From Prevotella sp. UBA1104 (lineage in GTDB: Bacteria; Bacteroidota; Bacteroidia; Bacteroidales; Bacteroidaceae), in NCBI GenBank assembly GCA_002314055.1, contig DCBP01000096.1, positions 19,511 to 83,510 of the forward strand: a stretch of DNA of 64,000 bases. Reading direction: 5' to 3'. The translations under genes and the position numbers were made by a program. Each line of letters opens with the position of its first letter. The first letter of the stretch is position 1. The notes below the pieces were generated by a model. It was not told where the DNA came from, made no database searches, and saw only the letters and a program-made list of their open reading frames with translations. Below, piece by piece: positions 23,089 to 58,726 of this stretch.

Positions 23089-23162
23089 GGCTCCGTAGCT
23101 CAACTGAATAGAGCATCTGACTACGGATCAGAAGGTTCCGGGTTTGAATCCCAGCGGAGTCA
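23089..23162 (+). tRNA. tRNA-Arg (ACG)
   Basis: Acceptor GGCTCCG/CGGAGTC, anticodon arm TCTGA-CTACGGA-TCAGA, T-arm GGGTTTGAATCCC. Confidence 0.96.
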
Positions 23163-23433: not shown

Positions 23434-23540
23434 TTTTGAAGTTTTAGCGAATTCCAGGGCAATAATACATTTTGCAACAGTTAAAAAACATTACAACGAT
23501 TGTCTGTGCTCCGATGATGTCACGCAAAACTTTTATTGAA

Positions 23541-24704
23541 ATGAAAAAGAATTTAGTGGATGTCGTTTATGACAGAAGGAATCTTGTTGCAAAGAAAGGT
23601 TATGGATTTCTAGAAGTGAGGGTTTATCTTGACCACACAGGCAGAAGGAAGTACTTGAAAATTGATAAGTGTACTCCAAGTGAGGCAAAGAAACTTGAAA
23701 AGTCCCATGAGACAAAGGAACTGATCGAGAAATGTGAGCAGATTCTGTCCGTGATGAAATTTCTTGGTGAAGACATGACACCGGAAAATTTTGATTTTCA
23801 TCTAACTGGAGAATCAAAGAAAACTGAAAAGTTAGAGGAGCCGGAACCCAAGGAAGAAGCTCCCAAGGACAACTCCAACAAGAGTTTCATCCGCTACATG
23901 GAATTTGCCCTCGCCGATGAGGAGCTTCGCCCTGGCACCCATAAGAATAAGGTGGTGGTGATAGATGCCGTAAAGCGTTTCGGCGGTCTGAACACCTACG
24001 GCGACTTGACTCCGGCAAAGATCCGTCAGTTTGACGACTGGCTTCATGACGGCACAAGGTCTGATGTAACTATTTCCGGCTACCACAAGAAGGTACACAA
24101 ATGGGTGCGGCAGTTGGTAGAGACGGACGAGATAGCCCATGACCCGTATTCACGTGTAACGATAAAGCGCGGCAAGAGCAAGGAGCGCCGTCCTTTGACG
24201 GAATCCGACTTGAAACGTATGCGCGAGTACCGTTTTACAGGCAAGCTTGAACGTGTGCGCGACCTGTTCATCTTCTCGGCATATACAGGTTTGTCTTATG
24301 CCGATACCCAAATCTTTGACTTCGAGAGCATGACGTTAAGCAACGGCGGTATGTACTATGTTGACGGCAGCCGAGTGAAGACCGGCACACGCTTCTTCAC
24401 TCCGATACTGTCCCCTGCAATGGAAGTGCTTAAGAAATACAACTTCAATTTGCCGAAGATAAGCAACCAGAAGGCAAACGACTACCTCCATCTGATAGAG
24501 GCACAACTCGGTTTCCGCAACAGCCTGACTTTCCACGTTGCACGGCACACCTTCGCTACTCTCGCCCTGTCTCATGACGTGCCAATCGAGAACGTGGCGA
24601 GAATGTTGGGACATGAGGACATCAAGACCACACAGATTTATGCCAAGGTGCTGCGCTCCACGATCGAGCGCCATGCCGAAGCACTGCAAGGCGCACTACT
24701 CTAA
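23541..24704 (+). CDS. Tyrosine recombinase/integrase (IntDOT-like)
   Basis: YTGLSYAD, RVKTG, FHVARHTFAT, MLGHEDIKTTQIY. Confidence 0.95.
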   Translation: MKKNLVDVVYDRRNLVAKKGYGFLEVRVYLDHTGRRKYLKIDKCTPSEAKKLEKSHETKELIEKCEQILSVMKFLGEDMTPENFDFHLTGESKKTEKLEEPEPKEEAPKDNSNKSFIRYMEFALADEELRPGTHKNKVVVIDAVKRFGGLNTYGDLTPAKIRQFDDWLHDGTRSDVTISGYHKKVHKWVRQLVETDEIAHDPYSRVTIKRGKSKERRPLTESDLKRMREYRFTGKLERVRDLFIFSAYTGLSYADTQIFDFESMTLSNGGMYYVDGSRVKTGTRFFTPILSPAMEVLKKYNFNLPKISNQKANDYLHLIEAQLGFRNSLTFHVARHTFATLALSHDVPIENVARMLGHEDIKTTQIYAKVLRSTIERHAEALQGALL

Positions 24705-30758: not shown

Positions 30759-31381
30759 GCAAAATCAAGACGTTAAGCTCCAAAAAGGGCACGAGGATTT
30801 AAGAAAATCCGCCATTTTTTAAGACATAAAAAATATAACGTCTTGATTACCAACGAGAAAAGGGATTGTTAAGGGAATTTCCCTTAACCCGTCTTGATAA
30901 AGACCCCCCGACCGCCCTGTACTGCCGAACCGCTCCGAGGCTTTCAAGGAAGCGGAATATGTGAACAAGTGTTAATTTTAAGTTTCTCAATTACGACAAA
31001 ATGCCGAAGTTGCGCTAAAAGGCGAAAATTCCGAATAAGGCGAAAAGGAAGAAAAGGCGGATTAGGTTGCGAGGGATGCGAGAGCGACCGCAAAGTTTCG
31101 CAAAGGCATAAGGATGCTCCGAGTTTCGGAATGATGAAAGGGACACTCCGAGTTTCGGGAAGATATATGTTTTCGGATTGGGAGAAATGGGAGGACTAAG
31201 AGAAATGGGCAAAGGTTTCGGAAAAGTAGGGAGTTTTCGGGATGACAAAGGGTATCGGAATGACATATAGGACTGATATGACCAATAGGACGAATACGAG
31301 AGGGGAAAAGTGAGGGTTTCGTGATGATGCCAAGGACAACAAAGCGACCCACGAGCCGACGGAGGCATCGGGCGGTAATGC

Positions 31382-32353
31382 GGCAGTGGTGAGAGATGAA
31401 AAGGTGATGCGCCTGTCGGTATTCAGCCGACATGGGGGCGCATCGGCTTTTCATCGGCTTTACTTCACTCTCAATAAAACTTGTTTTACTGAGGGGGAAG
31501 TAATGCTCACCTCTGCCATACCTATTGAATAAGCGAGAGTGCTGGCTGACTTTTAGCAATCTCCGATTGCCATAAGTCAGACGGCTTTCTCGCATTGACA
31601 GACAATAGAAAGCGCAGCTTTACCAGACAAAGGGCGAAGCCTGTGAGGAAATGAAGGCATTGCCTTATTGCAGAGAGTGTGAAGGCGCAGCCTTGCAAAA
31701 AGCGAATGGATGTGGAGAGAAATGCAATGAAGTGGGAATGTAGGGTTTCGGCTTGGCGCGAAGAGCCAAGGCGGAACCCGTAATGGGAACGTAATGGAAT
31801 GTAGCGCAACGTCCTTTCGCAACTCTGAAAGGTGAAGGGTGTGCAACACTGTTCACCTTTTAATAAAGACAGACATCGAAGATGTAGGAAATGAAATTGA
31901 CGCTTGCGTGTTGATGATTGACGTGTAGGTCAGACAAGCACGCTGAAAGCGTTGCTTGGCTGGGCGGAGCGTCAATCATCAGCGGAGGTGGTGCATTGTT
32001 CGGTGGCGAGGACCGGCGCAGCCGTGAAAGCGTGGGGCGTGGAATGAAGTGGAGGTGCTTCGGGCTGACGTGAAGGAAAGTGTGTGTTGCTTACCCCGTG
32101 CCGTAACTCGTGTGCCTGCACTTTCTCTGAAAGACGCAGCGGACTTGTCGACGCTCGCGGCGATGTGTCCGCTGCCCTTCCAGAGAAAAGAGTTGCGGCA
32201 CGGATTAAGGGAAGTGGCATACTCTTTCCGCAACAGAAGAACGAAGAGCCGGAACGCAATGGAACGCCCCACGGTTTTCTTAGCCACAGCGTGGCTTGTA
32301 CTCGCTATGAACAATGCACCGCCGGAGCCGTTGGCTGAAGGCTTTAGCCTTTT
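31382..32353 (+). ncRNA. Putative large structured non-coding RNA (5' end undefined)
   Basis: Nested long helices with + strand G-U pairs, no credible ORF, terminator at 32333-32353. Confidence 0.6.
32333..32353 (+). terminator. Intrinsic terminator closing the structured region
   Basis: GGCTGAA-ggc-TTTAGCC followed by TTTT. Confidence 0.55.
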
Positions 32354-32972
32354 ATTCTCTTCGGGCGTGGGAGCGCCGAAGTACAATAAGAATAATACCT
32401 ATTATAAATAGGATGATGAAAGTGAGCTTTGTGGATGACGAAAGGAAAGGCTTGCTTTCCTTTTGTGTATTTTGCGCCTTTGCGTATGAGGACTGCATCG
32501 CCTTGGCGAGGCTGTCCGCTTCCTGCTGGTACATGGAGGACTTTTCCTCGACCTTCCGGGAGAGGTGAAGTCCGTAGACGGTTACTTTGGACGGCTGCGC
32601 CGTGGAAAATGAAGAAGACTTTGTCTTGGTGTTCTTATGGGGCTTGCCCGTAGAGGGAGAAACGTCAGGGAGTGGCGCAGAGGTATCGGAGTGCTCACTG
32701 GTGTTTCGGGTGGGTGGGAAGTATAGAGCGCAGCTGTCGAAGGAAAGGGCGGTGAGGCGCCTTAAAGAGCTGGATGAAAGATTCTCGGCGGATTGCCATT
32801 GGGCTTGCACAACGGCGTTCCGACCGCTTTCATCATTCTGTGTTTTCCGCACTGTCTTGCATCCTGCAAGGCAAATTACGGAAAAAATAAAGCCCCACCC
32901 CCAGACCCCTCCCCAAAGGGAGGGGAGTGATATGCTTGAGAACTTGTGTTTTAGAAATGGGATGATATTCAT
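32352..32972 (-). CDS. Lipoprotein with C-terminal TM helix (u-spanin-like)
   Basis: Lipobox LAGC, C-terminal LTFIILFIIGIILIVL-RR, directly after the endolysin. Confidence 0.6.
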   Translation of the reverse strand: MNIIPFLKHKFSSISLPSLWGGVWGWGFIFSVICLAGCKTVRKTQNDESGRNAVVQAQWQSAENLSSSSLRRLTALSFDSCALYFPPTRNTSEHSDTSAPLPDVSPSTGKPHKNTKTKSSSFSTAQPSKVTVYGLHLSRKVEEKSSMYQQEADSLAKAMQSSYAKAQNTQKESKPFLSSSTKLTFIILFIIGIILIVLRRSHARRE

Positions 32973-33005: not shown

Positions 33006-33416
33006 TCAGATGTTTGCATATTCTTTTGTGGCATCGAAGGATGGGCAGGCTTTCGGGGCGAAGTCGCGATGACTGCGGATGCTTGCATGTGGAAACTGCT
33101 CTTTTAGCTCTTTGAGAAGAGATAAAAGTGCAGCCTTCTGTGCTGACGTGCGAGTGTCCTTCGGACTCTTGCCGTCAGTTGCGAGACCACCTATGTAGCA
33201 TACTCCGATGCTATTGGTGTTGTGCCCCTGGCAGTGCGCTCCAACCGCTCCGATTGGGCGCCCAGTGTGTATGCTGCCGTCAAGGTAGACAACGTAATGG
33301 TAGCCGATGGAGGCGAATCCGCGTTGTCGGTGCCAACGGTCGATGTCGGCGACAGTGAAAGACTTGCCTTCGGGAGTTGCGGAGCAATGGACGATGATTG
33401 TGGTGATCTTTCTCAT
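33006..33416 (-). CDS. N-acetylmuramoyl-L-alanine amidase (T7-lysozyme-like endolysin)
   Basis: IIVHCSAT, IGYHY, GAHC, SIGVCYIGG, HRDF..KACPSFD motifs. Confidence 0.93.
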   Translation of the reverse strand: MRKITTIIVHCSATPEGKSFTVADIDRWHRQRGFASIGYHYVVYLDGSIHTGRPIGAVGAHCQGHNTNSIGVCYIGGLATDGKSPKDTRTSAQKAALLSLLKELKEQFPHASIRSHRDFAPKACPSFDATKEYANI

Positions 33417-33664
33417 TTCTTCTCCTCCTCTTTCAGTTTGTTGTCGAGATAGGATCTGAGTTCGGAGTACTTGCTTTGTATGTAGATGGTAACCCCGAAG
33501 ATGGATCCGGCATAGATAAGGCACTCGGCGAAAATGCCGAGGACCGACTCGTGGATTTGACCGGTGGGCGGTACTACGAACCCTGCGACGGCAAGGAGAA
33601 ATCCGCCAATCAGCATAGCGATTGCAGAAGTAATCTGGATGTTTTCTTTAGTTTCTTTAGTCAT
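33413..33664 (-). CDS. Putative holin
   Basis: 83 aa, two TM helices, charged C-terminus, overlaps the endolysin start. Confidence 0.7.
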   Translation of the reverse strand: MTKETKENIQITSAIAMLIGGFLLAVAGFVVPPTGQIHESVLGIFAECLIYAGSIFGVTIYIQSKYSELRSYLDNKLKEEEKK

Positions 33665-33708
33665 GATGATAAGAATTAGTTGATTGAATAAACAGAAGAA
33701 AGTTGCTT

Positions 33709-33743
33709 GTCTTTTGCCATTCAGAGAATAAGAGTTACTTTTG
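33709..33743 (+). promoter_or_regulatory. Element-specific promoter GTCTTTT-N20-TACTTTTG, antisense orientation
   Basis: Same motif and spacing as the six minus-strand copies. Confidence 0.65.
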
Positions 33744-33752
33744 TGTCATGTT

Positions 33753-33827
33753 TGTGGTATGAGACCATTAACATTTGGTATGTGGTATGAGACCATTTAT
33801 ACTTTGGCGTTGTGGTATGAGACCATT
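33753..33827 (+). repeat. Three TGTGGTATGAGACCATT direct repeats
   Basis: Exact 17-bp copies at 33753, 33781 and 33811 with 11- and 13-nt spacers. Confidence 0.9.
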
Positions 33828-33844
33828 TCGCCATTTTTCGTATC

Positions 33845-35002
33845 TTAGAACTTGGAAAAGTTATAGGAAACTTCATAGTTTTGTTCATCAGTCCCTCTTG
33901 CACAAGCAATAACCTTAAACACGGCGAGGTTTGTGCGAAGGTCCGAAAAGCGGAACGCCCAGGAAAAGTCCGTTTCCTTGTAGAAACCGACAGCAAACTT
34001 GAACGAATGATACTTGTAAAGGATATCAAAGAGTTTTTGTCCGTAAGGAATACGGATCTTGTTAATCTTTCCGTCCGGGAGTTCAACGACCTTCACCTTA
34101 GAGAACAGGGCTTCCGGCGTTTGCATATATTGGTGTTTCGTTTCATTAGGTTGCAGTTTCTCCATGCGGAACGAAACCGTGTCGTCGCTGTTGATGATTA
34201 TTTTCTTAGAGTCAAAAAACCTGTTCCATCCGCGACGTTTAGGGAGATATTCCCTTGGCAATTCCGGGTTTTCCTTGTCAGTCCACCGTCTTGAAGTACG
34301 TGTCGTGTAACGGAAGATTACCGGAATGAGCCCCGACTTGACCAACTGATAAGCCCCCTGAATATAAATCTTGTTGTCCTTGATAATCGCCTCGATATGC
34401 ACGGAGGTGGTTTGACGCATGGAAGCAAACGTATTGATGTTGTTCTGGAGCGTTCGGATGGCAGACTTCAGAGAAGAGATGTCCGTTTGGAGCTGCTTAA
34501 TGTCGATATCCATGAGGTTGGCACCGCGGCGCAGGGAAGTGATGGAGAGTTGGATATTGCTGATGCTCTTTTCAAGGTCGGAGAGAGATATTTGGAGGGA
34601 CGTGATGTCCTTGGAAACTGCGGAAATATCCGTTTTGCACTTGTTGAGATCCGTTACCTGCTGAGCACGCATAACCCCGGCACGTTCGGTGGTGGCTTGG
34701 CGGATGGAAATGGAATTTTGCAAGACCTGCGACCTGTTCGTTTTCAGATCAGACTTGGTGAGGGAGAGGAAGACACTGTTGCGGTCGTCCGAGCCAATGG
34801 AAATGCCGTTGAGCATTGATCCGAGATTTTGCAGCGCCGTGCGCCATGCAGCAAGGCTCGCCACGTCCGACTGTTGGGCGGTGTTGGCGATGACGTCGGC
34901 AATGCGCTGGAGAAGCGCGCCGAGGACTTCGGGAGAAATACTTTCCTCTTGAGTTTCGTTGCGGAAAGAGGAGATTAGATTAGTGAGAGAAGAGATGTCC
35001 AT
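33845..35002 (-). CDS. Phage protein with coiled coil (possible tail fibre or accessory)
   Basis: 385 aa, heptad-rich middle, ATTERAGVM motif, own element-specific promoter. Confidence 0.6.
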   Translation of the reverse strand: MDISSLTNLISSFRNETQEESISPEVLGALLQRIADVIANTAQQSDVASLAAWRTALQNLGSMLNGISIGSDDRNSVFLSLTKSDLKTNRSQVLQNSISIRQATTERAGVMRAQQVTDLNKCKTDISAVSKDITSLQISLSDLEKSISNIQLSITSLRRGANLMDIDIKQLQTDISSLKSAIRTLQNNINTFASMRQTTSVHIEAIIKDNKIYIQGAYQLVKSGLIPVIFRYTTRTSRRWTDKENPELPREYLPKRRGWNRFFDSKKIIINSDDTVSFRMEKLQPNETKHQYMQTPEALFSKVKVVELPDGKINKIRIPYGQKLFDILYKYHSFKFAVGFYKETDFSWAFRFSDLRTNLAVFKVIACARGTDEQNYEVSYNFSKF

Positions 35003-35014
35003 GATTTTTTATTG

Positions 35015-35049
35015 CAAATATAATTTGGTGGAATTGATGAAGAAAAGAC
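35015..35049 (-). promoter_or_regulatory. Element-specific promoter GTCTTTT-N20-TATATTTG
   Basis: Exact motif upstream of the 35002 start. Confidence 0.7.
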
Positions 35050-35183
35050 GAAATTGAATTTAGAATTTAGAGTGTAGAATGTAGAATTGTGGCTTCGCCA
35101 TTGAGAATTGGAGAATTATTGAATCTTTGTGTAACTGAAAAATTGAAAAATGATAGAACTGCGAGAACTGGAATTTCCTACAA

Positions 35184-38424: not shown

Positions 38425-39816
38425 CTAATCATTTTTGTTGTCGGGGGGAGTGTTCTGTTTTTCGGTGCTTACCTGCTTGGCATCCTTGTTCTCGTCAAGA
38501 GTGGTAAGCTGGATGAAAGGGCAGTCGGGCTTGACCGCTGACCAGTTGTTGAAACGGATGATAAGGCGATGGACGTTGAAAAGTAGGTCATGATACGGTT
38601 TTTGCAGAGCCTGTGCGATGGTGTAAAGCTCACGCTTGTCAGAGCCGGAGTTGTTTGTCTGAGTTTTGCCGGGGACAGAGCCGACGAGGTTGGAGTGGAC
38701 ACGCATTGTGAAACACATCATGTTCACCGCCTCGATGATGTCCGTCGCCCAGTCGCCGCCCTCCTTGTCAGTCTCGATTTTGTTGATGACGACATCGTGC
38801 TGCTCCTCACCGTTCGGTGATACGTAGAACGTGGAGAAGAGGACCTTTCCACTGTTCTCCATACCCGTGAGAAAGTTGATGATGTTATCCTTCTCCTTGT
38901 TTACGCGTTCCTGCTGCTTCACTTTATCCGTGATACCCTCGACTTTGAAGATGTTGTTCCAGAAGCTGTTGGCAATCTCGATGTGGTATTTTATTGGGGC
39001 GGAGTTCTTGAGTTTCGCTTCCTTGGCGATGCCGATGAGCTGCTTGATGTTGTACCACTTGCCCTTGAAAAGAGCGGCATAGTAAGGGATTGGGTAATAG
39101 GTGTTGTCGGGCGTGGGAACACGACTCAAAACCGCAAACTTGCGGTTTGAGAATGAAGAATTAAGAGTGAAGAATGAAGAATTCTGATTAGCGTTGTTCT
39201 TTGTTTTTCCTTTGTTTAACCGCTGCTGCAAATCCGAGAGAGGGGATTGAGGATTCAATAACTCGATGCGCTCGATGTCTTCTGGGGAAGGAGTATTGCG
39301 CCAGTTGGCATAGAGGATGTAAGGGATTATGCCGTTCTTGTCAGCCGGGGCGAAGCGGACGTAACAGGCTTGCTTGCGTGCGATGCGGACGATGCGTGAG
39401 CCGTCCTCGTTGAGGATGATGACGCTTACGGCGAAACCGAAGTGTTTGAAGTCTTGGCAGACGCCGAGGAAATAACTCGCGATGTCATTATCAGCGGTGA
39501 AGTCCTCAACTTCCTTCTGTACTTGTGCGGTGGCGGAGCTTGTGTCGTAGACTAAGCCGCTGCCGTAGCAGACTTCGGCATTGAACATCTGGCATGTGGC
39601 GAGAGTTTCATCGGACTCGATAAGGTCGATGATGTTATACGGCATCTGGTTGTCGGCGCCCCATGGGATGTATTGCATCTTTTCAGTGATGAACACTGGG
39701 GCGATGTTGTGCTCCTCCTTGAAGACTTCACTTGTCTTGGGGGTGAAGGCGGCTGCCTTGTTGGTGCCGGGAATCTGGGCAACGGATGTTGGGGGGATGA
39801 AAGAAAAATCGCTCAT
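38425..39816 (-). CDS. Phage portal protein (putative)
   Basis: YIPWGADNQMP, YYPIPYY, FLTGMENSGK, SGSDKRE motifs of Bacteroidales phage portals. Confidence 0.78.
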   Translation of the reverse strand: MSDFSFIPPTSVAQIPGTNKAAAFTPKTSEVFKEEHNIAPVFITEKMQYIPWGADNQMPYNIIDLIESDETLATCQMFNAEVCYGSGLVYDTSSATAQVQKEVEDFTADNDIASYFLGVCQDFKHFGFAVSVIILNEDGSRIVRIARKQACYVRFAPADKNGIIPYILYANWRNTPSPEDIERIELLNPQSPLSDLQQRLNKGKTKNNANQNSSFFTLNSSFSNRKFAVLSRVPTPDNTYYPIPYYAALFKGKWYNIKQLIGIAKEAKLKNSAPIKYHIEIANSFWNNIFKVEGITDKVKQQERVNKEKDNIINFLTGMENSGKVLFSTFYVSPNGEEQHDVVINKIETDKEGGDWATDIIEAVNMMCFTMRVHSNLVGSVPGKTQTNNSGSDKRELYTIAQALQKPYHDLLFNVHRLIIRFNNWSAVKPDCPFIQLTTLDENKDAKQVSTEKQNTPPDNKND

Positions 39817-42052: not shown

Positions 42053-43405
42053 ATGATCACGACTATCAAGAAAAATTTTTCATTATTTGACTTTTGTAAG
42101 AAGAAAGCCGACAAGGTTCAGATATACGGTGAAGAAACATTGGATGATGAAGGAAATGTAATACCCTTTGTAGACCAAGCCGCCCTCATTACCCATTATT
42201 TGCAGCTAAGAAATAAAAATGTAGATATGCCTTATGCACAACAAGCCGAAGGCATATTAAATTTGTGGTATGAGTTTGTTAAAGGTGAGAAACAGCACAA
42301 ACCAGTTGATTTTGAAGGTGTGTCAGATTCGCCTGTTGGATATCAATCATATTTGTTTCCAGATTTATTTGAAGCTCCGTTTCAAGCTCCCAAGCATCCA
42401 AAATTCACATTTATAGATTTATTTGCTGGTATTGGAGGTTTTAGAATGGCATTCCAGAATCTTGGAGGTGAATGCGTATTTTCTTCCGAATGGGATGAAC
42501 AGGCAAAGAAAACCTATTATGCAAATTATGGTGATGTGCCTTTTGGAGATATAACAAAGGAAAGTACAAAGAACAAAATACCTAATGGGTTTGATATTCT
42601 TTGTGCAGGATTCCCGTGTCAGGCTTTCTCTCTTGCCGGAAAGCGACTCGGCTTTGAGGAAACTCGCGGTACATTGTTTTTTGATGTTGCGGAGATATTA
42701 CGCCGTTATCAGCCGAAGGCATTCTTCCTTGAAAATGTGAAAGGTCTTGTAATACATGACAAAGGAAGGACATTCAAGACTATTCTTAATACATTGGATG
42801 AAGTCGGATATGTTGTTCCAGATCCACAGATAGTAAATGCAATGTTCTTTGGTGTTCCACAGCATCGTGAGAGAATTTACATTGTTGGTTTCAGAAAGGA
42901 TTTGGGAATAAAGAAAGAGGATTTTTCTTATCCAGAGCAGAAAAAAGTAACAAAAAAGTGGATTGATGTTCGTGAAGAGAATCCTGTGCCAGCAAAGTAT
43001 TATCTTTCTACCACTTATATCGAAACGCTAAAACGGCACAAGGCTCGTCATGAGGCGAAAGGTCATGGCTTCGGATATGACATAATACCCGATGATGGTA
43101 TTGCACATGCTATTGTCGTAGGTGGTATGGGAAGAGAGAGTAACCTTGTTATAGATTTTCGTCAAACGGATCTTACGCCGACAACGAGGATTAAAGGTGA
43201 AGTAAATCGCCAAGGTTGGCGCAAGATGACTCCTCGTGAGTGGGCGCGTTTGCAGGGCTATCCGGACAATTTCAAAATTGTTGTAGCTGATGCCTCGGCA
43301 TACAAACAGTTTGGGAATAGTGTGGCTGTACCGGCAATACAGGCAACAGCAAAGCAGTTGCTTAAAACTTTGAATGATAAAAATATTCTCAAAATATGGG
43401 ACTAA
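42053..43405 (+). CDS. DNA (cytosine-5) methyltransferase, M.HpaII-like
   Basis: FIDLFAGIGG, AGFPCQAFS, LENVKGL, PQHRER, YKQFGNSV motifs. Confidence 0.96.
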   Translation: MITTIKKNFSLFDFCKKKADKVQIYGEETLDDEGNVIPFVDQAALITHYLQLRNKNVDMPYAQQAEGILNLWYEFVKGEKQHKPVDFEGVSDSPVGYQSYLFPDLFEAPFQAPKHPKFTFIDLFAGIGGFRMAFQNLGGECVFSSEWDEQAKKTYYANYGDVPFGDITKESTKNKIPNGFDILCAGFPCQAFSLAGKRLGFEETRGTLFFDVAEILRRYQPKAFFLENVKGLVIHDKGRTFKTILNTLDEVGYVVPDPQIVNAMFFGVPQHRERIYIVGFRKDLGIKKEDFSYPEQKKVTKKWIDVREENPVPAKYYLSTTYIETLKRHKARHEAKGHGFGYDIIPDDGIAHAIVVGGMGRESNLVIDFRQTDLTPTTRIKGEVNRQGWRKMTPREWARLQGYPDNFKIVVADASAYKQFGNSVAVPAIQATAKQLLKTLNDKNILKIWD

Positions 43406-43426
43406 AATAACTGAAAATATAATATT

Positions 43427-44506
43427 ATGGCATTAACAGGAAATAAAGGAGAATGGAGTGAGATATACACTCTTTTTAAATTGTTAGGTGATGGTAAAGT
43501 TCATGCTGGCGATGCCGATATGAACAAGTTGGAATTGTATTATCCAATTCTAAATATCATTCGCGAAGAAAGCAAGCGATACGAGTATAAGCCAAATACA
43601 GAGCAGAACATTGTTATCATAGATGAAGATGGTAATGAGTATGCTCGAATTTCCATGGACAGGTTTGTTGAAGAATCGTCAAAATTGTTGTCTGAAATTA
43701 AGGCGGCAAAGAAGAGTGCTTTTGAAATTCCAGAAGCTGAACGTTTCATGGGCGAGATTGGCTGTTCTAAATTGAAGGCACCTTCAACAGACAAGGCCGA
43801 CATTCATATTGTAATACATGATCTTCGAACGAATATGACTCCACTGTTGGGTTTCAGTATTAAATCGCAGTTAGGCAGTGCTTCAACTTTGCTTAATGCA
43901 GGAGCTACCACCAATATTACTTATAAGGTAGATGGAACAAAGTTGAGTGATGAAGATATTAATGCAATTAATGGGGTCAATAGTCATTTGGACCGTTTGT
44001 CAGCTTTATATGAAAAGGGATGCTCATTGGAATATAGTGATATAGACAATTCCGTTTTCAGAAATAATCTTCAGTTTCTGGATAATTGTATGCCACAATT
44101 TATTGGAGACTGCCTGTTGGTTGATAGTAAAGGGGCAAATTCCTCAATAGACCATTGTGTGAAAGAAGTTGCAAAGAATAATCCTTTTGACTACAAAGGC
44201 AAGAATGTAGAAGATTTCTATGCCCACAAGATGAAAGTTTTGCTTCTAAGTGCAGCCCTCGGTATGGTGCCAGGCAAGGAATGGACTGGACGGTATGATG
44301 CCAATGGTGGCTATCTCGTAGTCCGCAAGGATGGAGAAATTGTCTGCTATCATTTCTACAATCAGAATGATGTTGAAGACTATTTGTATAAGAATACTCG
44401 GTTTGAAAGAGCCAGTCGAAGCCGTTTTGGGTTTGGTAAACTGTATCGTGGGGAAGATGGTAGTGTTTACATGAAGCTGAACTTACAGATAAGATTTAAG
44501 AAATAA
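43427..44506 (+). CDS. Type II restriction endonuclease, HpaII family
   Basis: MALTGNKGEWSEIY, KADI, GFSIKSQLG, LNLQIRF; adjacent to the C5-MTase. Confidence 0.85.
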   Translation: MALTGNKGEWSEIYTLFKLLGDGKVHAGDADMNKLELYYPILNIIREESKRYEYKPNTEQNIVIIDEDGNEYARISMDRFVEESSKLLSEIKAAKKSAFEIPEAERFMGEIGCSKLKAPSTDKADIHIVIHDLRTNMTPLLGFSIKSQLGSASTLLNAGATTNITYKVDGTKLSDEDINAINGVNSHLDRLSALYEKGCSLEYSDIDNSVFRNNLQFLDNCMPQFIGDCLLVDSKGANSSIDHCVKEVAKNNPFDYKGKNVEDFYAHKMKVLLLSAALGMVPGKEWTGRYDANGGYLVVRKDGEIVCYHFYNQNDVEDYLYKNTRFERASRSRFGFGKLYRGEDGSVYMKLNLQIRFKK

Positions 44507-44556
44507 ATAGACCTGTTCCTTTTTAGTGGTTTGGCAGAAAATAAAAGATTATTGGC

Positions 44557-45906
44557 ATGGACTTCGATTTTAAATATTCAAATTCATACACAGGGATATG
44601 GTATATTCCAAATTCTCAAAATGATATAAAAATATACGGCACACTATCACTGGACAAGCAATCTATGACAATAGATTTTGTAACAAGTGGAATAAATAAT
44701 GATTACCTTGGAATAAACATTCCAAGGATGGATGGTATAGTCTTTTCCACTGATGAAAAAGGAAAAGAGTGTACATATACATTGTCATTAAGAAATTTGC
44801 TCTTTTTAAAAAAAAATCCATTTTACATTGATTGTAATCATTTTTTATATGATGTTAAAACTTTAATAATTTATAAAGGAAAAGTTGATTTTGGTAAGAT
44901 TAAAAGTGTCTGCTTTTATACAAAAATGTTAAACAAATGGGCAAGCCATCAGATAAAGGATTGTTTCAAAGATTCAAAGTTATTTGAAGGAAAAATATCC
45001 TTTTCTTGTCCACAACCAATTGTTTTATTTGAAAATTCAGAAATAGAATTATCATTATTCATAGGTCATAAATCTTTTTTTGATAATGAAACCGTTGGTA
45101 TCAATGTAAAACCTTTCTTTACGCTAAACTTTAAAAGCCCTGTAGAATTTGGGAAAGCTCAGTTTGAAATAAACAAATATTCGCAATTGTTATTTTTATT
45201 GTGGAACAATAACTATGAATTCGACTTTGTTGAATACCGCACAGAAGAAGGACGGTTTACTTGTAAAACAAGTGAGAAGCATCTCTTCCGTTATATGTCG
45301 ACATATAAAAATGCGTCTCCATTTACAGAACTATCAGACATTCTTAATGAAAAGTTGTCTTTTGAAATAATAAAGAAATGGACAAATCTTTATGAAGAGT
45401 ATAAAGTTGCAATTATCACTTTCATAGAAACAACTTTAAATTCAATTTCTTCTCCATCAATGAAGATTAAAAATTACATAAGCGCTCTTGATGCCTTTTC
45501 AAAGGATATGAAAGGAGAAGAAAAAGAAATCGATAAAAACTCAAAAAAATCACGCACAATATATGGTATATTAGGAAAGGTGGATAAAATCATTTCGAGA
45601 GATGAAATTAATAAACTGAAGACATGGACTCTAATAGAAAAAGGAACAGCTTTAAAACCCAGGTTAAAAAAAATGATTTCGGAACTTGATGAATTACTTT
45701 CAGATAGTGGTATTGATAATACATTTATTGAAAAGATAGTTAACACAAGGAATAATTTTACTCATCCAAAGGAGTATGAAGAAAATTCATTTAAATATTC
45801 AGAATTGGATGATGCAGCATATTTGCTGACAAAAATAATTAGAGCGTTCTTGTTGAGGAAAATTGGATTAGATAAGAATTTAATAAAAGGAATCATAAAA
45901 TTCTAA
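44557..45906 (+). CDS. ApeA-like HEPN-domain protein
   Basis: N-terminal GIWYIP...GTL beta domain; C-terminal RNNFTH (Rx4H) motif. Confidence 0.72.
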   Translation: MDFDFKYSNSYTGIWYIPNSQNDIKIYGTLSLDKQSMTIDFVTSGINNDYLGINIPRMDGIVFSTDEKGKECTYTLSLRNLLFLKKNPFYIDCNHFLYDVKTLIIYKGKVDFGKIKSVCFYTKMLNKWASHQIKDCFKDSKLFEGKISFSCPQPIVLFENSEIELSLFIGHKSFFDNETVGINVKPFFTLNFKSPVEFGKAQFEINKYSQLLFLLWNNNYEFDFVEYRTEEGRFTCKTSEKHLFRYMSTYKNASPFTELSDILNEKLSFEIIKKWTNLYEEYKVAIITFIETTLNSISSPSMKIKNYISALDAFSKDMKGEEKEIDKNSKKSRTIYGILGKVDKIISRDEINKLKTWTLIEKGTALKPRLKKMISELDELLSDSGIDNTFIEKIVNTRNNFTHPKEYEENSFKYSELDDAAYLLTKIIRAFLLRKIGLDKNLIKGIIKF

Positions 45907-45939
45907 TATAATAGCATCTTTAAATATAATGAATAGCAA

Positions 45940-46362
45940 ATGAAAAAATTTATATTATTGTTTGTTTTTGGCATTATATATGCAACAAGCATTTGTGCAC
46001 AACAAAAATTTTTCTGTGAAATAAAAGGAGCAGAAAAAGAGTTATCATCAGGACTAAAAATAGTTTTTGACTTTGGTAAAGATCCTGTTTATGGTAGCCT
46101 TTCAACTCTGAAGAGCAAACAGAAATTAGTTGATGAAAAAGGTGAAGTAATTTCATTTAATAGTATGGTCGATGCCGGAAATTATCTATCTGGGAAAGGT
46201 TGGACATTTGTTCAAGCATACTCGTCTGATTATGGTGGACAGGCAATAAATCATTGGATATTCAGTAAAGAATCTGAGAGCTTAGAAAAGGCTTGCGAGG
46301 GAATAGTAACAAAAGGAATGTATGAGCAATCTCATAAACGAGTTGGATATTATGGAAATTGA
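45940..46362 (+). CDS. Secreted hypothetical protein
   Basis: Signal peptide; FNSMVDAGNYLSGKGW motif. Confidence 0.7.
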   Translation: MKKFILLFVFGIIYATSICAQQKFFCEIKGAEKELSSGLKIVFDFGKDPVYGSLSTLKSKQKLVDEKGEVISFNSMVDAGNYLSGKGWTFVQAYSSDYGGQAINHWIFSKESESLEKACEGIVTKGMYEQSHKRVGYYGN

Positions 46363-46705
46363 ATTTTTGATAGCTTTGAGAGATGTATTGGAGGAAATGG
46401 AGAAGTCTGGTGGAGAATACAGTGAAAGTGAAATAGAAAAGTTTGCTCCTAAATACTCACAAGCTATAGTAAAAATGCTATGTGATGAAAATGTAATAAC
46501 ACCATGTATAGGAGGATGTCTAATTATAAAGCCGAACGGGAATTTACTATTACTTTTGGAAAGAACAAAAGGAGTAATTTCTGAAAAAATACAAGCTAAA
46601 AAGGATCATGTATTTAATAGATGTAAAGCCTATCTTACAATAGGCTGTTCTATTATAGCACTGATCATCTCCATAATTTCCATAATTGTCAGCTGTAACC
46701 ATTAG
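46322..46705 (+). CDS. Hypothetical protein with C-terminal TM helix
   Basis: 127-aa ORF overlapping the upstream gene. Confidence 0.6.
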   Translation: MSNLINELDIMEIEFLIALRDVLEEMEKSGGEYSESEIEKFAPKYSQAIVKMLCDENVITPCIGGCLIIKPNGNLLLLLERTKGVISEKIQAKKDHVFNRCKAYLTIGCSIIALIISIISIIVSCNH

Positions 46706-46715
46706 TGATAGACCT

Positions 46716-47219
46716 ATGGACAAGATGACCAAAGAGCAGCGCAGCCGTTGTATGGCATCCATACACAGCAAGGACACCAAGCCGGAGATATTGGTTCGGC
46801 GGTATCTCTTTGCCCATGGGTTCCGGTATCGGGTAAACCATCCGCGACTGCCGGGGCATCCCGATATCGTGATGCGCAAGTACCGTACGGTCATCTTTGT
46901 AAACGGTTGCTTTTGGCATGGACATGAAGGATGCAAATACTTTGTATTGCCCAAAAGCAGGACGGAGTTTTGGCAAGCGAAGATAGAGCGCAATATTCAG
47001 CGAGATAAGGAAGAACAGAAACGGCTTGCCGATATGGGTTGGCATTGCATTACTGTATGGGAATGCCAGTTGAAGCCAAAGGTGAGAGATGAAACTTTGC
47101 GTTCTTTGGAATACACGATTAATCATATCTATGTTGAAGACCATAAGGTTAGGAGATATGAGATGCCGGAGGAGGAAAGAGAGATGGCGGCGGAGCCTGA
47201 TAAAAATATGGAAAATTAG
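46716..47219 (+). CDS. vsr: Very-short-patch repair endonuclease
   Basis: RSRCMASIHSKDTKPE, LPGHPDIV, FVNGCFWHGH, VWECQL. Confidence 0.95.
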   Translation: MDKMTKEQRSRCMASIHSKDTKPEILVRRYLFAHGFRYRVNHPRLPGHPDIVMRKYRTVIFVNGCFWHGHEGCKYFVLPKSRTEFWQAKIERNIQRDKEEQKRLADMGWHCITVWECQLKPKVRDETLRSLEYTINHIYVEDHKVRRYEMPEEEREMAAEPDKNMEN

Positions 47220-47248
47220 AAAAATAATTAATAATCTTATTAAAGAAA

Positions 47249-47725
47249 ATGAATATGAGTACACGAAAAAAAATAATCCTGACATGTGTAATAGGATTGG
47301 TAATTGGAATTATTGGTGGGGGAATTAGTGGATATTTCGTAGGATATTATCAAGGCTGTGATATAGGTTATAATAAAGGATATTACGAAAAAGAAAGTGA
47401 GGATACAAGTAAAACTGAAAAAAAAGTAGAAAATGGTTTAATTCTTTTCGATACCCCCCAAAAAGAAATACATGTAAGTTCATTTCATGTCTTTCAAGTT
47501 ATGTCGAATGGCAGTGCTTTAGCTGAATGTTATGATACAGGTAGTGATGATCTTGCTTTTGAGGCAGTGGTTAGGTTTCAAGCAACAGAAGGGAATGTAT
47601 ATTATGATGACCAAATAATAAAATTATCGGAAGGAAAGCATTTTAGACTTATTGGAACATATGATTATGAAAGTCGAAAAAATGGTTGGAAAACAGTTCC
47701 TGTTATAGGTATCTTTGACAAATAA
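47249..47725 (+). CDS. Membrane-anchored hypothetical protein
   Basis: N-terminal TM helix; YYDDQII and GTYDYES...KTVPV motifs. Confidence 0.7.
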   Translation: MNMSTRKKIILTCVIGLVIGIIGGGISGYFVGYYQGCDIGYNKGYYEKESEDTSKTEKKVENGLILFDTPQKEIHVSSFHVFQVMSNGSALAECYDTGSDDLAFEAVVRFQATEGNVYYDDQIIKLSEGKHFRLIGTYDYESRKNGWKTVPVIGIFDK

Positions 47726-49134: not shown

Positions 49135-49337
49135 GGAAGTTGAATTTAGAGTTTAGTGTGTAGAATGTAGAGTTGTCGGCGAAGCCGATTGAGAATTGGA
49201 GAATGAAGAAAGAAAATTGGAGAATAAAGAATTTTCCGCTAAGCTCCAACAGGGCGGTGGGTGGGGAAACGAATAAGAAACGGACACGACCGATGGAAGA
49301 AAGGAAGAAGTCCGAAATTCGGACTTCTTCCCTCCGC

Positions 49338-49655
49338 CTAAGCCCTCTTTTCCGCCTTCGGCTTGCGCCCCCTTCTTTTCTTGGGCATTTCCTCTGTGGC
49401 GGCGACCGCCTTCTGCTCCGTGGCTGCTGCGGCAGCCTTGCCGAGAGCAATCTCGTGAGAGAGGCGAGAGAGACAATTATCAGAGATGTTCAGCCCGGAA
49501 CGCTTTTTGAGGAGGAACATAAGGCGCATCGCCTTATACGCGCTTTTGCAGTAAAACCTCTCATTACTGTCATTGCTGAAATAAACGAACCAGATACTGT
49601 TTTCAGAATAAAGATTAACGGCTTTAGCAGCCAAGATAACATTAGGAGTATTCAT
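49338..49655 (-). CDS. Small basic hypothetical protein
   Basis: 105 aa, C-terminal [10 protein letters not shown] (AT-hook-like). Confidence 0.65.
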   Translation of the reverse strand: MNTPNVILAAKAVNLYSENSIWFVYFSNDSNERFYCKSAYKAMRLMFLLKKRSGLNISDNCLSRLSHEIALGKAAAAATEQKAVAATEEMPKKRRGRKPKAEKRA

Positions 49656-50153: not shown

Positions 50154-50440
50154 AAGGAAAAATCAGAAAGCACATAGGAGTGGAACGCTCGAACGATAAA
50201 AATTAAAAAATGGAAATACGGAAAAAGGAATATCGTTAAATGAAGAATGAAGAGTGAAGAATGAAGAATCCGGCAATCTCTGTCTACCAATTAAAAAAAT
50301 GGAGAGGATGACCGATAAAAGAAGAATATGAGATTGAAGACACAAAAAGAAAGAGGGAAGTGGAAAGGCGGTAATGCTATAAAAACGGCTACCGATGATA
50401 TAATCAACTATATCGAAGTGTATCTCAAAAAAACGGTGTT

Positions 50441-50692
50441 TCACGAAATATGAACGGTGAATACTCCTGATGTTGTCTTGACTGCTCTACCACTGCCGTA
50501 AATTCTGACAATAGTATCTACCAATTTCATGAAGCAATGACAGGAATGAGAGGTTGCGAAAGAGCAATAAAACAAGGTGTTTACCGCTATACTCCTCAAA
50601 AAGTGTTTCGGGCTGAATATCCAATTGCCGCTCTCGCCCACGAGATTGCTCTTGGCAAAGGACAGCGAAGCGGAGAAGGTGGTGGACGACAT
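50441..50692 (-). CDS. Small hypothetical protein (uncertain)
   Basis: 83-aa ATG ORF in an otherwise empty interval. Confidence 0.3.
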   Translation of the reverse strand: MSSTTFSASLSFAKSNLVGESGNWIFSPKHFLRSIAVNTLFYCSFATSHSCHCFMKLVDTIVRIYGSGRAVKTTSGVFTVHIS

Positions 50693-50789
50693 TGAGAAAA
50701 TGCCGAAGAAACGGGGCGCAGGGCGGAGGGAAGAGGAAAAGAGGGGTTAGGGGGAGAGGTTTACTCTGTTCTATATACTTTTGGGGTAG

Positions 50790-54265: not shown

Positions 54266-54541
54266 TTACTCGTCATCCTCCATGTCGAGGAGATTGTTAC
54301 GGGTGTTTTCGAGAGCGAGAGGAGAACCGACATAAGCGAGTTGCATCTCCTGATGGAGAAGTTTGACACGACTTGATGCTTTGCCACGGTGGTACGCCTT
54401 GGAAACATCAGTAGTCTTGTCGGCAATATCCTGACGCAAGACTTCGGCAGGGATGCCGAGGATAATCGCCATATCGCTGATTTTAACGTAGATAGAGGCA
54501 TATTGCTCGATTTGAGTGAGGATTTGTTCGGAGTATTGCAT
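54266..54541 (-). CDS. Phage hypothetical protein (HTH-like)
   Basis: ISDMAIILGIP pattern; 91 aa. Confidence 0.6.
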   Translation of the reverse strand: MQYSEQILTQIEQYASIYVKISDMAIILGIPAEVLRQDIADKTTDVSKAYHRGKASSRVKLLHQEMQLAYVGSPLALENTRNNLLDMEDDE

Positions 54542-54631
54542 ATATTGAGTTAAGAGTTTAGAGTGTAGAATGTAGAGTTTTCGGCTTTGCCGATAAAGAG
54601 TTATTTAATTAAGAATTTTAGATTATACAGA

Positions 54632-56008: not shown

Positions 56009-56662
56009 CTAAAGCTTGTTGTTGATGCCGGTGAAGAAGATGCAGTTCTTGTGGTGCTCGACAAGGAGGTTGCGCATGGCTTTGAGGGTGGAGCCAGTTG
56101 TTACAAAGTCGTCGAAGACAATGCAGTTCGGTTCTTTGGGGAGAATGTTCAAGGAGAACACCGCCCCGATGCGCTGCTTGGAATGACAGAAAGCAACATC
56201 CTCGTAAAACGGGATGTGCAACTGCCTGGCAATATCCTCACTGATACGAGTGGCAAAGTTCTTGACAAGATGGCGGCGCTTGGGAGTAGTGACGATACAC
56301 CACGAACCACTTTGTAAATCACCGCCGAGAATCTCCGCAATGAGCGGAGAAATATTGTCGGCAAAGAAGTTCACCATACTGTCATCAGCCTTGATGTCAG
56401 TCAGCGTCCTACCATAAAGCGTTTTCTGCCATATCGAAATGAAGAACACGTCGCCACGCTTGGTAAGACGGACCCGCCGGGAGAAGTCGCAGCGCGCTTC
56501 GACCGACTTATCCCACGCCTTGCGTTTCTCGACAGCAAAGATATCCTTGTTTTCGATAGTTTTGCCCATATCGACCACAGGCAAATCGAGCGAACCCGAC
56601 AAGTCAGGGACGACGATGTCATTCAAGAACTCGCCCATGTCAAGTAAAGTCCGCTCGATCAT
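56009..56662 (-). CDS. Phosphoribosyltransferase-fold protein (ComF-like)
   Basis: CIVFDDFVTTGSTL PRPP-binding motif. Confidence 0.8.
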   Translation of the reverse strand: MIERTLLDMGEFLNDIVVPDLSGSLDLPVVDMGKTIENKDIFAVEKRKAWDKSVEARCDFSRRVRLTKRGDVFFISIWQKTLYGRTLTDIKADDSMVNFFADNISPLIAEILGGDLQSGSWCIVTTPKRRHLVKNFATRISEDIARQLHIPFYEDVAFCHSKQRIGAVFSLNILPKEPNCIVFDDFVTTGSTLKAMRNLLVEHHKNCIFFTGINNKL

Positions 56663-56817
56663 AGTTTAAATGAAGAATGAAGAGTGAAGAATGAAGAATT
56701 GGTCGCCTTGCGGCGATTAAGAATTATGCAGTTAAGAGTTATACTCATACGGCATTTCTTACTCATATTGAGAACCCAAACTTCATTCTCACAATTATAC
56801 ATTTATACAATTATACA

Positions 56818-57375: not shown

Positions 57376-57551
57376 AAAAATGAAGAATTAAGAATGAAGA
57401 ATGAAGAATTGGTTGGTCTGCGACCAATTGGAAATTAAGAGTTGGTAAAACCTGCCGGCGATCCACGCCGCTTTCGCGAAATGCAGAGTACTGGGCGTTT
57501 TTCCTTTCCTTCAGAATCCGCTCATCCAGCGAAGAGTCCGACAGGTGTTTA

Positions 57552-58511: not shown

Positions 58512-58726
58512 ATATAAATGAAGAATTAAGAATTAAGAATGAAGAATTGGTCGCCTTTGGCGATTGAGAGTTAAAGAGTTTAGAGTTAAGCATAAAGGAA
58601 CTTTAAATAAAGACCCACCCTGACCCTCCCGAAGGGAGGGAAGGGCTGCGCACTACGATTGTTGCGCAAGAGGGAAAGTTAAACTTAAAATCAAAAAAAT
58701 ATGAAAAAGATATAGCTAAAGTATTG

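What the first reader, a model, noticed from the sequence alone, without database searches (positions are those of the whole stretch)
33709..33840. Antisense late-type promoter firing into a three-repeat mini-array
Seen: the only + strand copy of the element promoter ends at 33743, and 10 nt later come three exact TGTGGTATGAGACCATT repeats. Each has an internal TGGT-N5-ACCA hairpin, and they are separated by related 11- and 13-nt spacers containing TTTGG. There is no + strand ORF, and the array sits divergent from the holin start. Inference: a late-expressed small repeat RNA (protein sponge, decoy for a defence system, type III antitoxin-like RNA, or lysis-timing regulator). Alternatively the repeats are operator sites.
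Basis: partly seen in the sequence, partly recalled or inferred. Interest (0 to 1): 0.75.

Follow-up and report, generated by a model that had tools for sequence, protein, structure and literature searches.

The report
Prophage small RNA gene beside holin
A Prevotella-type prophage carries, in the gap just upstream of its cell-lysis genes, what looks like a previously undescribed ~92-nt three-hairpin small RNA gene read against the phage genes from the phage's own promoter type; it probably restrains or times lysis, but its expression has not been tested.

Summary
Three exact 17-mers lie at 33753, 33781 and 33811 (+). They sit 9 nt after a promoter at 33709-33743, the only + strand copy of a phage-specific promoter class, GTCTTTT-N20-TAnnTTTG. 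That class occurs 7 times in the prophage and once in the remaining 3.26 Mb.

The repeats are not a repeat/spacer array. The "spacers" are outer stems, giving three hairpins (33748-33774, 33777-33803, 33805-33833). The last is followed by a U-run that looks like a terminator, so the predicted RNA is about 92 nt (33748-~33840).

The same module (promoter, 9 nt, three hairpins, U-run) sits between the same two genes in six diverged sequence groups: 30 viral contigs and 6 genomes. Across them the holin is 48-88% identical and the upstream protein 22-47%.

Covariation, G.U polarity, and promoter and terminator orientation all indicate an RNA on the window + strand. No Rfam family matches, and three literature searches found no description.

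The holin has no promoter of its own. I therefore favour a cis-antisense or convergent-transcription gate on read-through into holin-endolysin-spanin (about 0.5). A multivalent protein-binding RNA is the main rival (about 0.3). DNA operators, a type III antitoxin and a CRISPR mimic are rejected. Expression is untested.

The parts
33709..33743 (+). Promoter of the small RNA: GTCTTTT element overlapping the -33 TTTG (33713-33716), a 19-nt spacer, and the -7 box TACTTTTG (33736-33743). It is the only + strand copy of the phage-specific promoter class.
   Evidence: conserved in relatives; consensus and G at -5 from PMC6847099 passages
33748..33774 (+). Hairpin 1, which starts at the predicted transcription start (33748, 5 nt after the -7 box G). 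Outer stem AUGUU/AACAU, U.U internal loop, core GUGGU-AUGAG-ACCAU.
33777..33803 (+). Hairpin 2: outer stem GGUAU/AUACU around the same core.
33805..33833 (+). Hairpin 3: outer stem UGGCG/CGCCA around the same core. It is the stem of the presumed intrinsic terminator.
33834..33840 (+). U-run (UUUUUCG) after hairpin 3, the presumed 3' end of the RNA. It ends 5 nt before the stop codon of the upstream 385-aa gene.
   Evidence: a U-run follows the last hairpin in 5 of 6 groups and is weaker in the L038 group
33413..33664 (-). Holin-like gene (83 aa, two hydrophobic segments by inspection). There is no TAnnTTTG box of its own on the - strand between 33665 and 33844.
   Evidence: (PHROG 8278, unknown function)
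33006..33416 (-). Endolysin (N-acetylmuramoyl-L-alanine amidase, 136 aa from the ATG that overlaps the holin end).
32352..32972 (-). 206-aa protein with a lipobox-like LAGC, a spanin-like last gene of the lysis cassette. The function is inferred from position.
33845..35002 (-). 385-aa coiled-coil structural-block gene. Its read-through transcript would have to carry the holin.
35015..35049 (-). Nearest upstream gene-sense promoter of the same class (GTCTTTT-N20-TATATTTG), convergent with the small-RNA promoter.

Best explanation
The feature is a compact small-RNA gene on the + strand that fills the gap between a late structural gene and the holin.

Transcription. A promoter of the phage's own class (33709-33743) is predicted to start transcription at about 33748. 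The RNA folds into three hairpins, each with a conserved G.U-closed core helix (GUGGN...N'CCAU) and its own outer stem. It should end at the U-run after hairpin 3, at about 33840, giving roughly 92 nt.

Proposed function. The holin-endolysin-spanin cassette has no promoter of its own, so it must be read through from the convergent promoter at 35015. I propose the unit acts as a gate on that read-through. RNA polymerase firing or sitting at the opposing promoter, and/or the antisense RNA pairing with its exact complement in the read-through mRNA (three complementary hairpins, kissing-loop style), would lower or delay expression of the lysis genes relative to the structural genes.

Shown: the anatomy, its conservation, the strand polarity and the membership of the promoter class.
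Inferred: transcription itself, the timing, and the gating mechanism.
For: - Promoter. It is a perfect TTTG-N19-TAnnTTTG and belongs to a class found 7 times in the prophage and once elsewhere in 3.26 Mb. The six gene-sense copies precede the tape measure, 385-aa, 254-aa, portal, 353-aa and protease genes.
- Relatives' promoters. In each of 5 relatives, the single opposite-strand copy within the prophage is the one in front of the array. The control pattern gave 1 hit in total.
- Conserved module. It is present in six diverged groups: 29 of 29 holin-linked viral loci, 4 of 29 genome loci and 1 of 51 further viral loci. There are always three hairpins, and always 9 nt between the -7 box and the first hairpin core.
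- Synteny. The order upstream gene, module, holin, amidase, lipoprotein is kept although the upstream protein is only 22-47% identical.
- Strand polarity. 34 of 34 distinct hairpins are more stable on this strand, and each has at least one G.U. The whole-RNA MFE is better by 9-25 kcal/mol in 8 of 8 representatives. The z-score is better in 3 of 5 groups and tied in 2.
- Covariation. 93% of cells are paired against 83.6% in shuffles. 15 of 27 pairs changed on both sides (0 of 500 shuffles reach this). The score is 0.305 against 0.04-0.08 with slid partners.
- Terminator. A U-run follows the last hairpin on this strand only.
- Holin promoter. There is no - strand TAnnTTTG in the gap. In other lineages the holin abuts or overlaps the upstream gene or has a sense promoter of the same type.
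Against: - No expression data exist: no RNA run was available, so there is no transcript evidence.
- The antisense overlap ends 46-97 nt upstream of the holin ATG, and the RNA has no conserved complementarity to the holin start region (z -1.0 to +1.1 in 6 groups). A simple block of translation is therefore not supported.
- A pure cis-antisense role does not explain two things. One is the conserved core helix with its G.U closing pair (17 of 19, 15 of 18 and 18 of 19 rows). The other is that the cores are (near-)identical within a phage yet differ between phages in 5 of 6 groups. Both fit a bound partner better.
- The + strand is G+U-rich overall, which by itself favours G.U pairs. In the window itself the z-scores of the two strands are equal.
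- The alignment used for covariation was fitted to the model.
- All six groups belong to one syntenic phage lineage, so the constant position is partly inherited rather than independent evidence.
Confidence: 0.5

Rival explanations
1. The same small RNA is made, but it works in trans as a multivalent protein-binding RNA. It would be a sponge, scaffold or decoy for a phage or host protein, with each hairpin offering one binding site at the G.U-closed core helix.
For: - The core helix GUGG.../...CCAU and its G.U closing pair are conserved in all three hairpins and all groups.
- The distal stem and loop vary freely (3-19 nt).
- Cores are identical or nearly so within a phage but differ between phages in 5 of 6 groups. 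That is the pattern expected of sites co-evolving with a cognate protein.
- The number of sites is fixed at three.
Against: - No candidate partner was identified. Pfam and PHROGs give no RNA-binding protein among the prophage ORFs scanned.
- In the L017-L037 group the three cores differ from each other.
- The tight packing against the holin start and the upstream stop codon is not needed for a trans-acting RNA.
Confidence: 0.3
2. The functional hairpins are on the - strand, as a structured leader of the holin mRNA (a binding site or processing signal). On this view the + strand promoter is incidental.
For: - The palindromic cores also fold on the - strand, with z -3.26 in the window.
- The holin must be transcribed through this region.
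Against: - In the L080 and L084-86 groups the - strand hairpins are nearly lost, because G.U pairs become A.C (-1.6 to -8.4 against -9.7 to -13.8 kcal/mol; whole-RNA z -1.2 and -1.35 against -3.7 and -5.25).
- The + strand promoter with fixed 9-nt spacing, and the + strand U-run, are conserved in all groups.
Confidence: 0.07
3. The repeats are DNA operator or iteron sites for a regulator of the neighbouring promoters.
For: - There are three direct repeats with internal dyad symmetry, spaced 28-33 bp, next to a promoter.
Against: - The distance between the conserved half-sites ranges from 3 to 19 nt, even within one phage.
- The intervening and flanking bases change in a compensatory way that preserves hairpins. 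A dimeric DNA binder would not tolerate the variable spacing or require the compensation.
Confidence: 0.04
4. It is a type III toxin-antitoxin RNA or an RNA mimic of CRISPR repeats.
For: - It is a tandem of short structured units behind a promoter, ending in a terminator.
Against: - No + strand ORF follows the terminator, and no ToxN-like domain was found in the ORFs scanned.
- No CRISPR array was found in the 96%-complete host assembly by a k-mer scan. All 9 candidates are tandem repeats without spacers, and none resembles the unit.
- The 17-mer occurs nowhere else in the genome.
Confidence: 0.03

Closest known systems
ColE1 RNA I / RNA II and related plasmid countertranscripts (recalled knowledge)
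   Same: A roughly 100-nt antisense RNA with three stem-loops, made from its own promoter. It is fully complementary to the leader of a longer transcript, and loop-loop kissing is plausible.
   Different: The target is a phage lysis operon, not a replication primer. There is no Rop-like gene. The hairpins share a conserved core helix. No sequence or Rfam relationship exists.
Type I toxin-antitoxin pairs with a divergent upstream sRNA (tisB/istR-1, shoB/ohsC, zor/orz; recalled; family overview in PMC2887945, seen in a search listing only)
   Same: A small membrane-damaging protein gene with a small RNA gene placed divergently just upstream of it.
   Different: The holin is part of a holin-endolysin-spanin cassette. 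The RNA does not reach the translation start (46-97 nt short) and has no complementarity to it. The promoter is of the phage structural-gene class rather than an obviously constitutive one.
Phage antisense RNAs proposed to delay lysis, e.g. asRNA PAK_P4as15 opposite the endolysin gene of Pseudomonas phage PAK_P4 (PMC5563952, Discussion passages read)
   Same: A phage-encoded antisense transcript at the lysis genes, proposed to hold back lysis proteins.
   Different: That asRNA overlaps the endolysin coding region and was found by RNA-seq. This one is intergenic, is defined by promoter, terminator and covariation, and lacks expression data.
Convergent-promoter transcriptional interference in temperate phages (coliphage 186 pR/pL, lambda PaQ; recalled)
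   Same: Face-to-face promoters in which the opposing promoter lowers the output of the other.
   Different: Here the opposing unit ends after about 92 nt in a conserved, structured RNA. Both promoters belong to the same phage-specific class.

Membership tests
Bacteroidetes housekeeping-type promoter (-33 TTTG / -7 TAnnTTTG) | A -7 box TAnnTTTG (no G at the nn positions), a -33 TTTG, and about 19 nt between them | tested here: met
   TTTG-N19-TACTTTTG at 33713-33743. The consensus, TAHHTTTG and G at -5 come from PMC6847099 passages. 25 of 30 related sequences keep the strict pattern; the other 5 differ by one base.
Phage-specific promoter class GTCTTTT-N20-TAnnTTTG (defined here) | GTCTTTT exactly 20 nt before the -7 box, and enrichment within the phage | tested here: met
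   7 copies in the prophage against 1 in the other 3.26 Mb. The generic promoter pattern occurs 3 times inside and 156 outside. The same holds in 5 relatives.
Intrinsic terminator | A stable hairpin followed directly by a U-run on the transcribed strand | tested here: met
   Hairpin 3 (-13.4 kcal/mol) is followed by UUUUU at 33834-33838. A U-run is present in 5 of 6 groups and is weaker in the L038 group. The simple consensus scan did not call it.
Structured RNA family (conserved secondary structure) | Base pairs maintained by compensatory change across homologues | tested here: met
   15 of 27 pairs changed on both sides; 93% of cells are paired; shuffle and slide controls are far lower. The alignment was fitted to the model, which inflates pairing somewhat.
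cis-antisense RNA | A transcript from the opposite strand overlaps it | not testable with these tools
   The geometry requires read-through from 35015 to express the holin, but no RNA data could be obtained.
Type I toxin-antitoxin | The antitoxin RNA base-pairs with the toxin mRNA so as to block its translation or trigger its decay | tested here: inconclusive
   It would be complementary to the leader of a read-through mRNA only. The overlap ends 46-97 nt before the ATG, and there is no complementarity to the start region.
Type III toxin-antitoxin (ToxIN-like) | An RNA repeat array followed on the same strand by an endoribonuclease toxin gene | tested here: not met
   No + strand ORF lies downstream, and no ToxN-like Pfam hit was found among the 33 ORFs scanned.
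CRISPR-repeat mimic (RNA anti-CRISPR) / mini-CRISPR array | Repeats resembling a host CRISPR repeat, or repeats of 28-37 nt with unique spacers | tested here: not met
   No CRISPR array was found in the host. The units are 27-29-nt hairpins without spacers.
Any Rfam 15 family | A score at or above the family's gathering threshold | tested here: not met
   Only a tRNA was found in the whole window. The best local hits score 15-16 bits against thresholds of 40-60.

The most novel reading that the evidence does not exclude
The three G.U-closed hairpins are a trivalent binding platform for a protein that co-evolves with them. The RNA would then be an RNA 'antiholin', a lysis clock, or an anti-defence sponge made together with the virion genes. 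It may also work in concert with the conserved ~450-nt rod-like element of the same strand polarity on the other side of the lysis cassette (31880-32345). Together the two would form an RNA bracket that controls when a gut Bacteroidales phage lyses its host.
Probability: 0.2. Interest if true: 0.8.

Novelty: new variant of a known kind. Interest (0 to 1): 0.6.

Why it matters
Almost nothing is known about how temperate phages of Prevotella and other gut Bacteroidales time lysis, or about their regulatory RNAs.

This finding gives a sharply defined candidate that can be tested directly: a predicted start at 33748, an end near 33840, three hairpins, a working covariance model, and 36 natural variants.

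It also exposes a phage-specific promoter class, GTCTTTT-N20-TAnnTTTG, which marks the structural genes in this phage lineage. That implies a still unidentified phage factor that reads it.

If the RNA gates the holin, it would be a lysis-control design different from the dual-start holins and antiholins of model phages. It would also be useful for engineering Bacteroidales phages and lysis switches.

Tried and rejected
- RNA-seq: no RNA holder was listed for window:33000-35100.
- Rfam at gathering and at permissive thresholds gave nothing.
- GenBank phages by blastn: 5 records matched only the amidase or holin coding parts, and none covered the intergenic module. The one cultured phage inspected, BT638P2, has no gap before its holin-like gene.
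- Exact 17-mer in species genomes: of 10 loci, only the Prevotella sp. UBA746 locus is related. L009 has no similarity. The other 8 are single copies in unrelated phyla and were not examined further.
- Composite pattern scan of viral contigs: 26 hits, of which 21 were already known and 5 were chance.
- MAFFT alignments of the whole unit (A1, A3) could not keep hairpins 2 and 3 in register, so I used a covariance model seeded from the window instead.
- Model R2 in 150 family genomes found none apart from the host. Stricter filters applied and only 20 candidates per genome were scored, so weak variants may have been missed.
- Small RNA against the holin start region: no signal.
- Invertible-promoter idea: there is no room for flanking inverted repeats in the L021-type loci, where the -33 box lies 10 nt from the holin ATG.
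- Upstream-ORF idea for the AUGG on the - strand: not conserved in the L080 and L084 groups.
- Packaging-site idea: in the complete 47-kb relative with terminal repeats, the module lies at 35.6 kb, not at an end.
- att repeat of the tRNA end: none of at least 13 nt in the window beyond 40 kb.
- Regulator hunt by Pfam on 9 further ORFs found nothing relevant.
- Three literature searches found no description of the element.

Full report
**Setting.** The window carries a Bacteroidota-type prophage. A tRNA (23089-23162) and an integrase (23472-24704, +) are followed by genes on the - strand: a 632-aa gene, the tape measure, a lysis cassette, a 385-aa coiled-coil gene, portal-like, terminase-like and protease genes, and others. 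A restriction-modification island on the + strand interrupts the block. The closest named record is Prevotella sp. UBA746, whose locus L007 is 97.6% identical over the region.

The finding lies in the 180-nt gap between the stop codon of the 385-aa gene (33845) and the ATG of an 83-aa holin-like gene (33664). That holin-like gene overlaps an Amidase_2 endolysin and is followed by a lipobox protein.

**Observation.** The three exact 17-mers are real and unique. There are three copies in the window at up to 3 mismatches, where shuffles average 0.08, and three in the whole 3.3-Mb genome.

The promoter is real too. TTTG-N19-TACTTTTG at 33713-33743 matches the Bacteroidetes consensus (consensus from passages of PMC6847099).

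The extended motif GTCTTTT-N20-TAnnTTTG occurs 7 times inside the roughly 39-kb prophage and once in the remaining 3.26 Mb. The generic promoter pattern, by contrast, occurs 3 times inside and 156 times outside. Six copies are on the - strand directly before the tape measure, 385-aa, 254-aa, portal, 353-aa and protease genes. The seventh is the + strand copy at 33709-33743.

**Anatomy.** The G of the -7 box lies at position -5 in Bacteroidetes promoters (PMC6847099), which puts the predicted start at 33748. From there the + strand folds into three hairpins: 33748-33774, 33777-33803 and 33805-33833. Each contains the 17-mer core (GUGGU-AUGAG-ACCAU) inside its own outer stem: AUGUU/AACAU, GGUAU/AUACU and UGGCG/CGCCA. 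UUUUU follows at 33834-33838. The 11- and 13-nt "spacers" are therefore halves of outer stems that differ between units but stay complementary. The predicted RNA is about 92 nt, and it ends 5 nt before the stop codon of the upstream gene.

**Relatives.** Searches were run with the holin protein, a holin profile, a composite DNA pattern and a genome panel. The same module turned up in six sequence groups:
1. the window, one IMG/VR contig and Prevotella sp. UBA746;
2. L017-L037 and L042;
3. L038-41, L043 and L044;
4. L080;
5. L084-86;
6. L130.

Together these are 30 viral contigs and 6 genomes. The holin is 48-88% identical to the window's, and the upstream protein only 22-47%.

Every group shows the same order on the strand opposite to the holin: TTGTCTTTT(G/A), 19 nt, a -7 box, 9 nt, three hairpins, then a U-run after the last one. 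The U-run is weaker in group 3. 25 of 30 sequences keep the strict promoter pattern, and the other 5 differ by one base.

Six group-2 loci carry a roughly 73-nt insertion between promoter and array. The insertion duplicates the -7 box next to the array.

In each of five relatives examined as whole records, the promoter class recurs several times in the gene direction. The single opposite-strand copy within the prophage is the one before the array:
- a complete 47-kb phage: 5 + 1;
- a provirus: 4 + 1;
- a fragment: 2 + 1;
- a whole genome: 4 + 1, all five within 9 kb of one contig;
- a second whole genome: 2 + 1 in the prophage contig, plus one copy elsewhere.

The reversed-pattern control gave 1 hit in total.

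Holin relatives outside this lineage lack the module. Either the holin abuts or overlaps the upstream gene (L072, L075, BT638P2), or it has a sense-oriented promoter of the same TGTCTTTT type about 25 nt before its ATG (about ten of L131-L143).

**RNA or DNA, and which strand.** The conserved half-sites ([G/A]UGG and CC[A/U]AU) are separated by 3 to 19 nt, even within one phage. The bases between and outside them change in a compensatory way. This excludes a dimeric DNA-binding site and calls for a hairpin.

A covariance model was seeded from the window and rebuilt from 8 sequences. It finds all six groups at full length in 20 of 71 sources. In the other 51 it gives no full-length hit; the only extra matches are 3 short promoter-only partial hits, in L019, L020 and L026, which also carry the module.

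On its alignment:
- 93% of cells pair, against 83.6 +/- 0.8 in shuffles;
- 15 of 27 pairs changed on both sides, against 9.4 +/- 1.6 (0 of 500 shuffles reach it);
- the covariation score is 0.305, against 0.04-0.08 with slid partners.

The alignment is fitted to the model, which flatters pairing.

Polarity points to the + strand:
- 34 of 34 distinct hairpins are more stable on the + strand, and each has at least one G.U (5 trivial downstream stems were set aside).
- The whole-RNA MFE is better by 9-25 kcal/mol in 8 of 8 representatives.
- Z-scores favour the + strand in 3 of 5 groups and tie in 2, including the window.
- In groups 4 and 5 the - strand versions nearly vanish.
- A G.U pair closes the core helix in 17 of 19, 15 of 18 and 18 of 19 rows.

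The + strand is G+U-rich throughout the prophage, so G.U counts alone are weaker evidence than they look. The decisive points are the conserved promoter and U-run orientation together with groups 4 and 5.

**Function.** On the - strand there is no TAnnTTTG between 33665 and 33844, and none is conserved in relatives. The holin-endolysin-spanin cassette must therefore be read through from the convergent promoter at 35015. Every such transcript contains the exact complement of the small RNA and has to pass the opposing promoter. In three groups that promoter's -33 box lies only about 10 nt from the holin ATG.

I therefore favour a gate on read-through into the lysis genes, acting by promoter interference and/or antisense pairing through three complementary stem-loops. 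Because both promoters belong to the same class, the gate would scale with structural-gene transcription.

Three results count against a simple version of this:
- The overlap stops 46-97 nt before the ATG.
- There is no complementarity to the start region.
- The conserved core helix, together with the within-phage similarity of the cores (5 of 6 groups), is better explained by a bound partner.

A multivalent protein-binding RNA is thus a serious rival. The two readings are not exclusive.

A type III antitoxin, a CRISPR mimic and operators are rejected, for the reasons given under the rivals.

**Known or new.** No Rfam family matches. No GenBank phage record covers the module. Three full-text searches found nothing on it.

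The nearest analogues by design are:
- three-stem-loop countertranscripts such as ColE1 RNA I (recalled);
- divergent sRNA/toxin pairs of type I systems (recalled);
- convergent-promoter interference in temperate coliphages (recalled);
- the asRNA proposed to delay endolysin accumulation in phage PAK_P4 (PMC5563952, passages read).

It is a new RNA family and a new variant of antisense control in phages. Among species-representative genomes it is rare: 5 of the 401 searched with the holin, counting the host, and 0 of 150 others by the model under strict filters.

**Side result.** Downstream of the lysis cassette lies an ORF-free 1.6 kb (30760-32350). It is conserved at 75-82% nucleotide identity in groups 2 and 3. 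It is not opened by TAG or TGA recoding, and the TAA read-through frame looks non-protein.

Its right part (31880-32345) folds into a rod-like hairpin of about 450 nt:
- The + strand z-score is -12.6, against -7.2 for the - strand.
- There are 162 consensus pairs, 22 of them with compensatory change.
- The + strand is more stable in 6 of 6 sequences, with 81 against 23 G.U cells.
- No canonical promoter lies nearby on either strand.

What this element is, and whether it is linked to the small RNA, remains open.

Noticed in passing
window 30760-32350 (core 31880-32345): This ORF-free 1.6-kb stretch lies between the spanin-like gene and the tape-measure promoter. It is conserved at 75-82% in two other groups. 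It contains a rod-like hairpin of about 450 nt (+ strand z -12.6, - strand -7.2; 162 consensus pairs, 22 compensatory; + strand favoured in 6 of 6 sequences). It has no Rfam match, no recoded ORF and no nearby canonical promoter. It could be a large structured RNA or a long DNA palindrome.
   Followed up: partly
window 30724, 35015, 37030, 39835, 49100, 59861 (-) and 33709 (+): The phage-specific promoter class GTCTTTT-N20-TAnnTTTG (7 copies in the prophage, 1 in the remaining 3.26 Mb) is also present in five relatives. It implies an unidentified phage factor that recognises the GTCTTTT element.
   Followed up: partly
L019, L020, L023, L027, L029, L042 (between promoter and array); L004 about 4067-4128; host contig C54:19394-19546: A small insertion of about 60-75 nt duplicates the TATCTTTG box and carries promoter-like sequence. 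A similar unit is tandemly repeated in the host genome. It looks like a small mobile or repeat element that targets or copies -7 boxes.
   Followed up: no
window 49332-49654 and 50458-50756: Five inverted-repeat pairs (22-30 nt arms, 88-96% complementary) together form long inverted arms that flank about 0.8-1.4 kb with small ORFs inside the prophage. This may be an invertible segment.
   Followed up: no
window 35050-35150, 39145-39206, 49136-49256, 50232-50293, 54541-54615, 56662-56723, 57372-57433, 58510-58593: Families of low-complexity intergenic repeats (AGAATG/TAGAAT-type runs next to short GC hairpins) recur between prophage genes. Similar tandem arrays occur elsewhere in the host genome (C9, C70, C122).
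   Followed up: no
window 42053-47725 (+): A low-GC island on the opposite strand sits inside the structural block. It encodes a C-5 cytosine methylase, an HpaII-type endonuclease, an ApeA-like HEPN protein and a Vsr endonuclease.
   Followed up: no
window 33643-33701: A 21-nt imperfect inverted repeat (76% complementary) could pair the holin leader with codons 1-7 and enclose the start codon. It was seen only in the window-type sequence.
   Followed up: no
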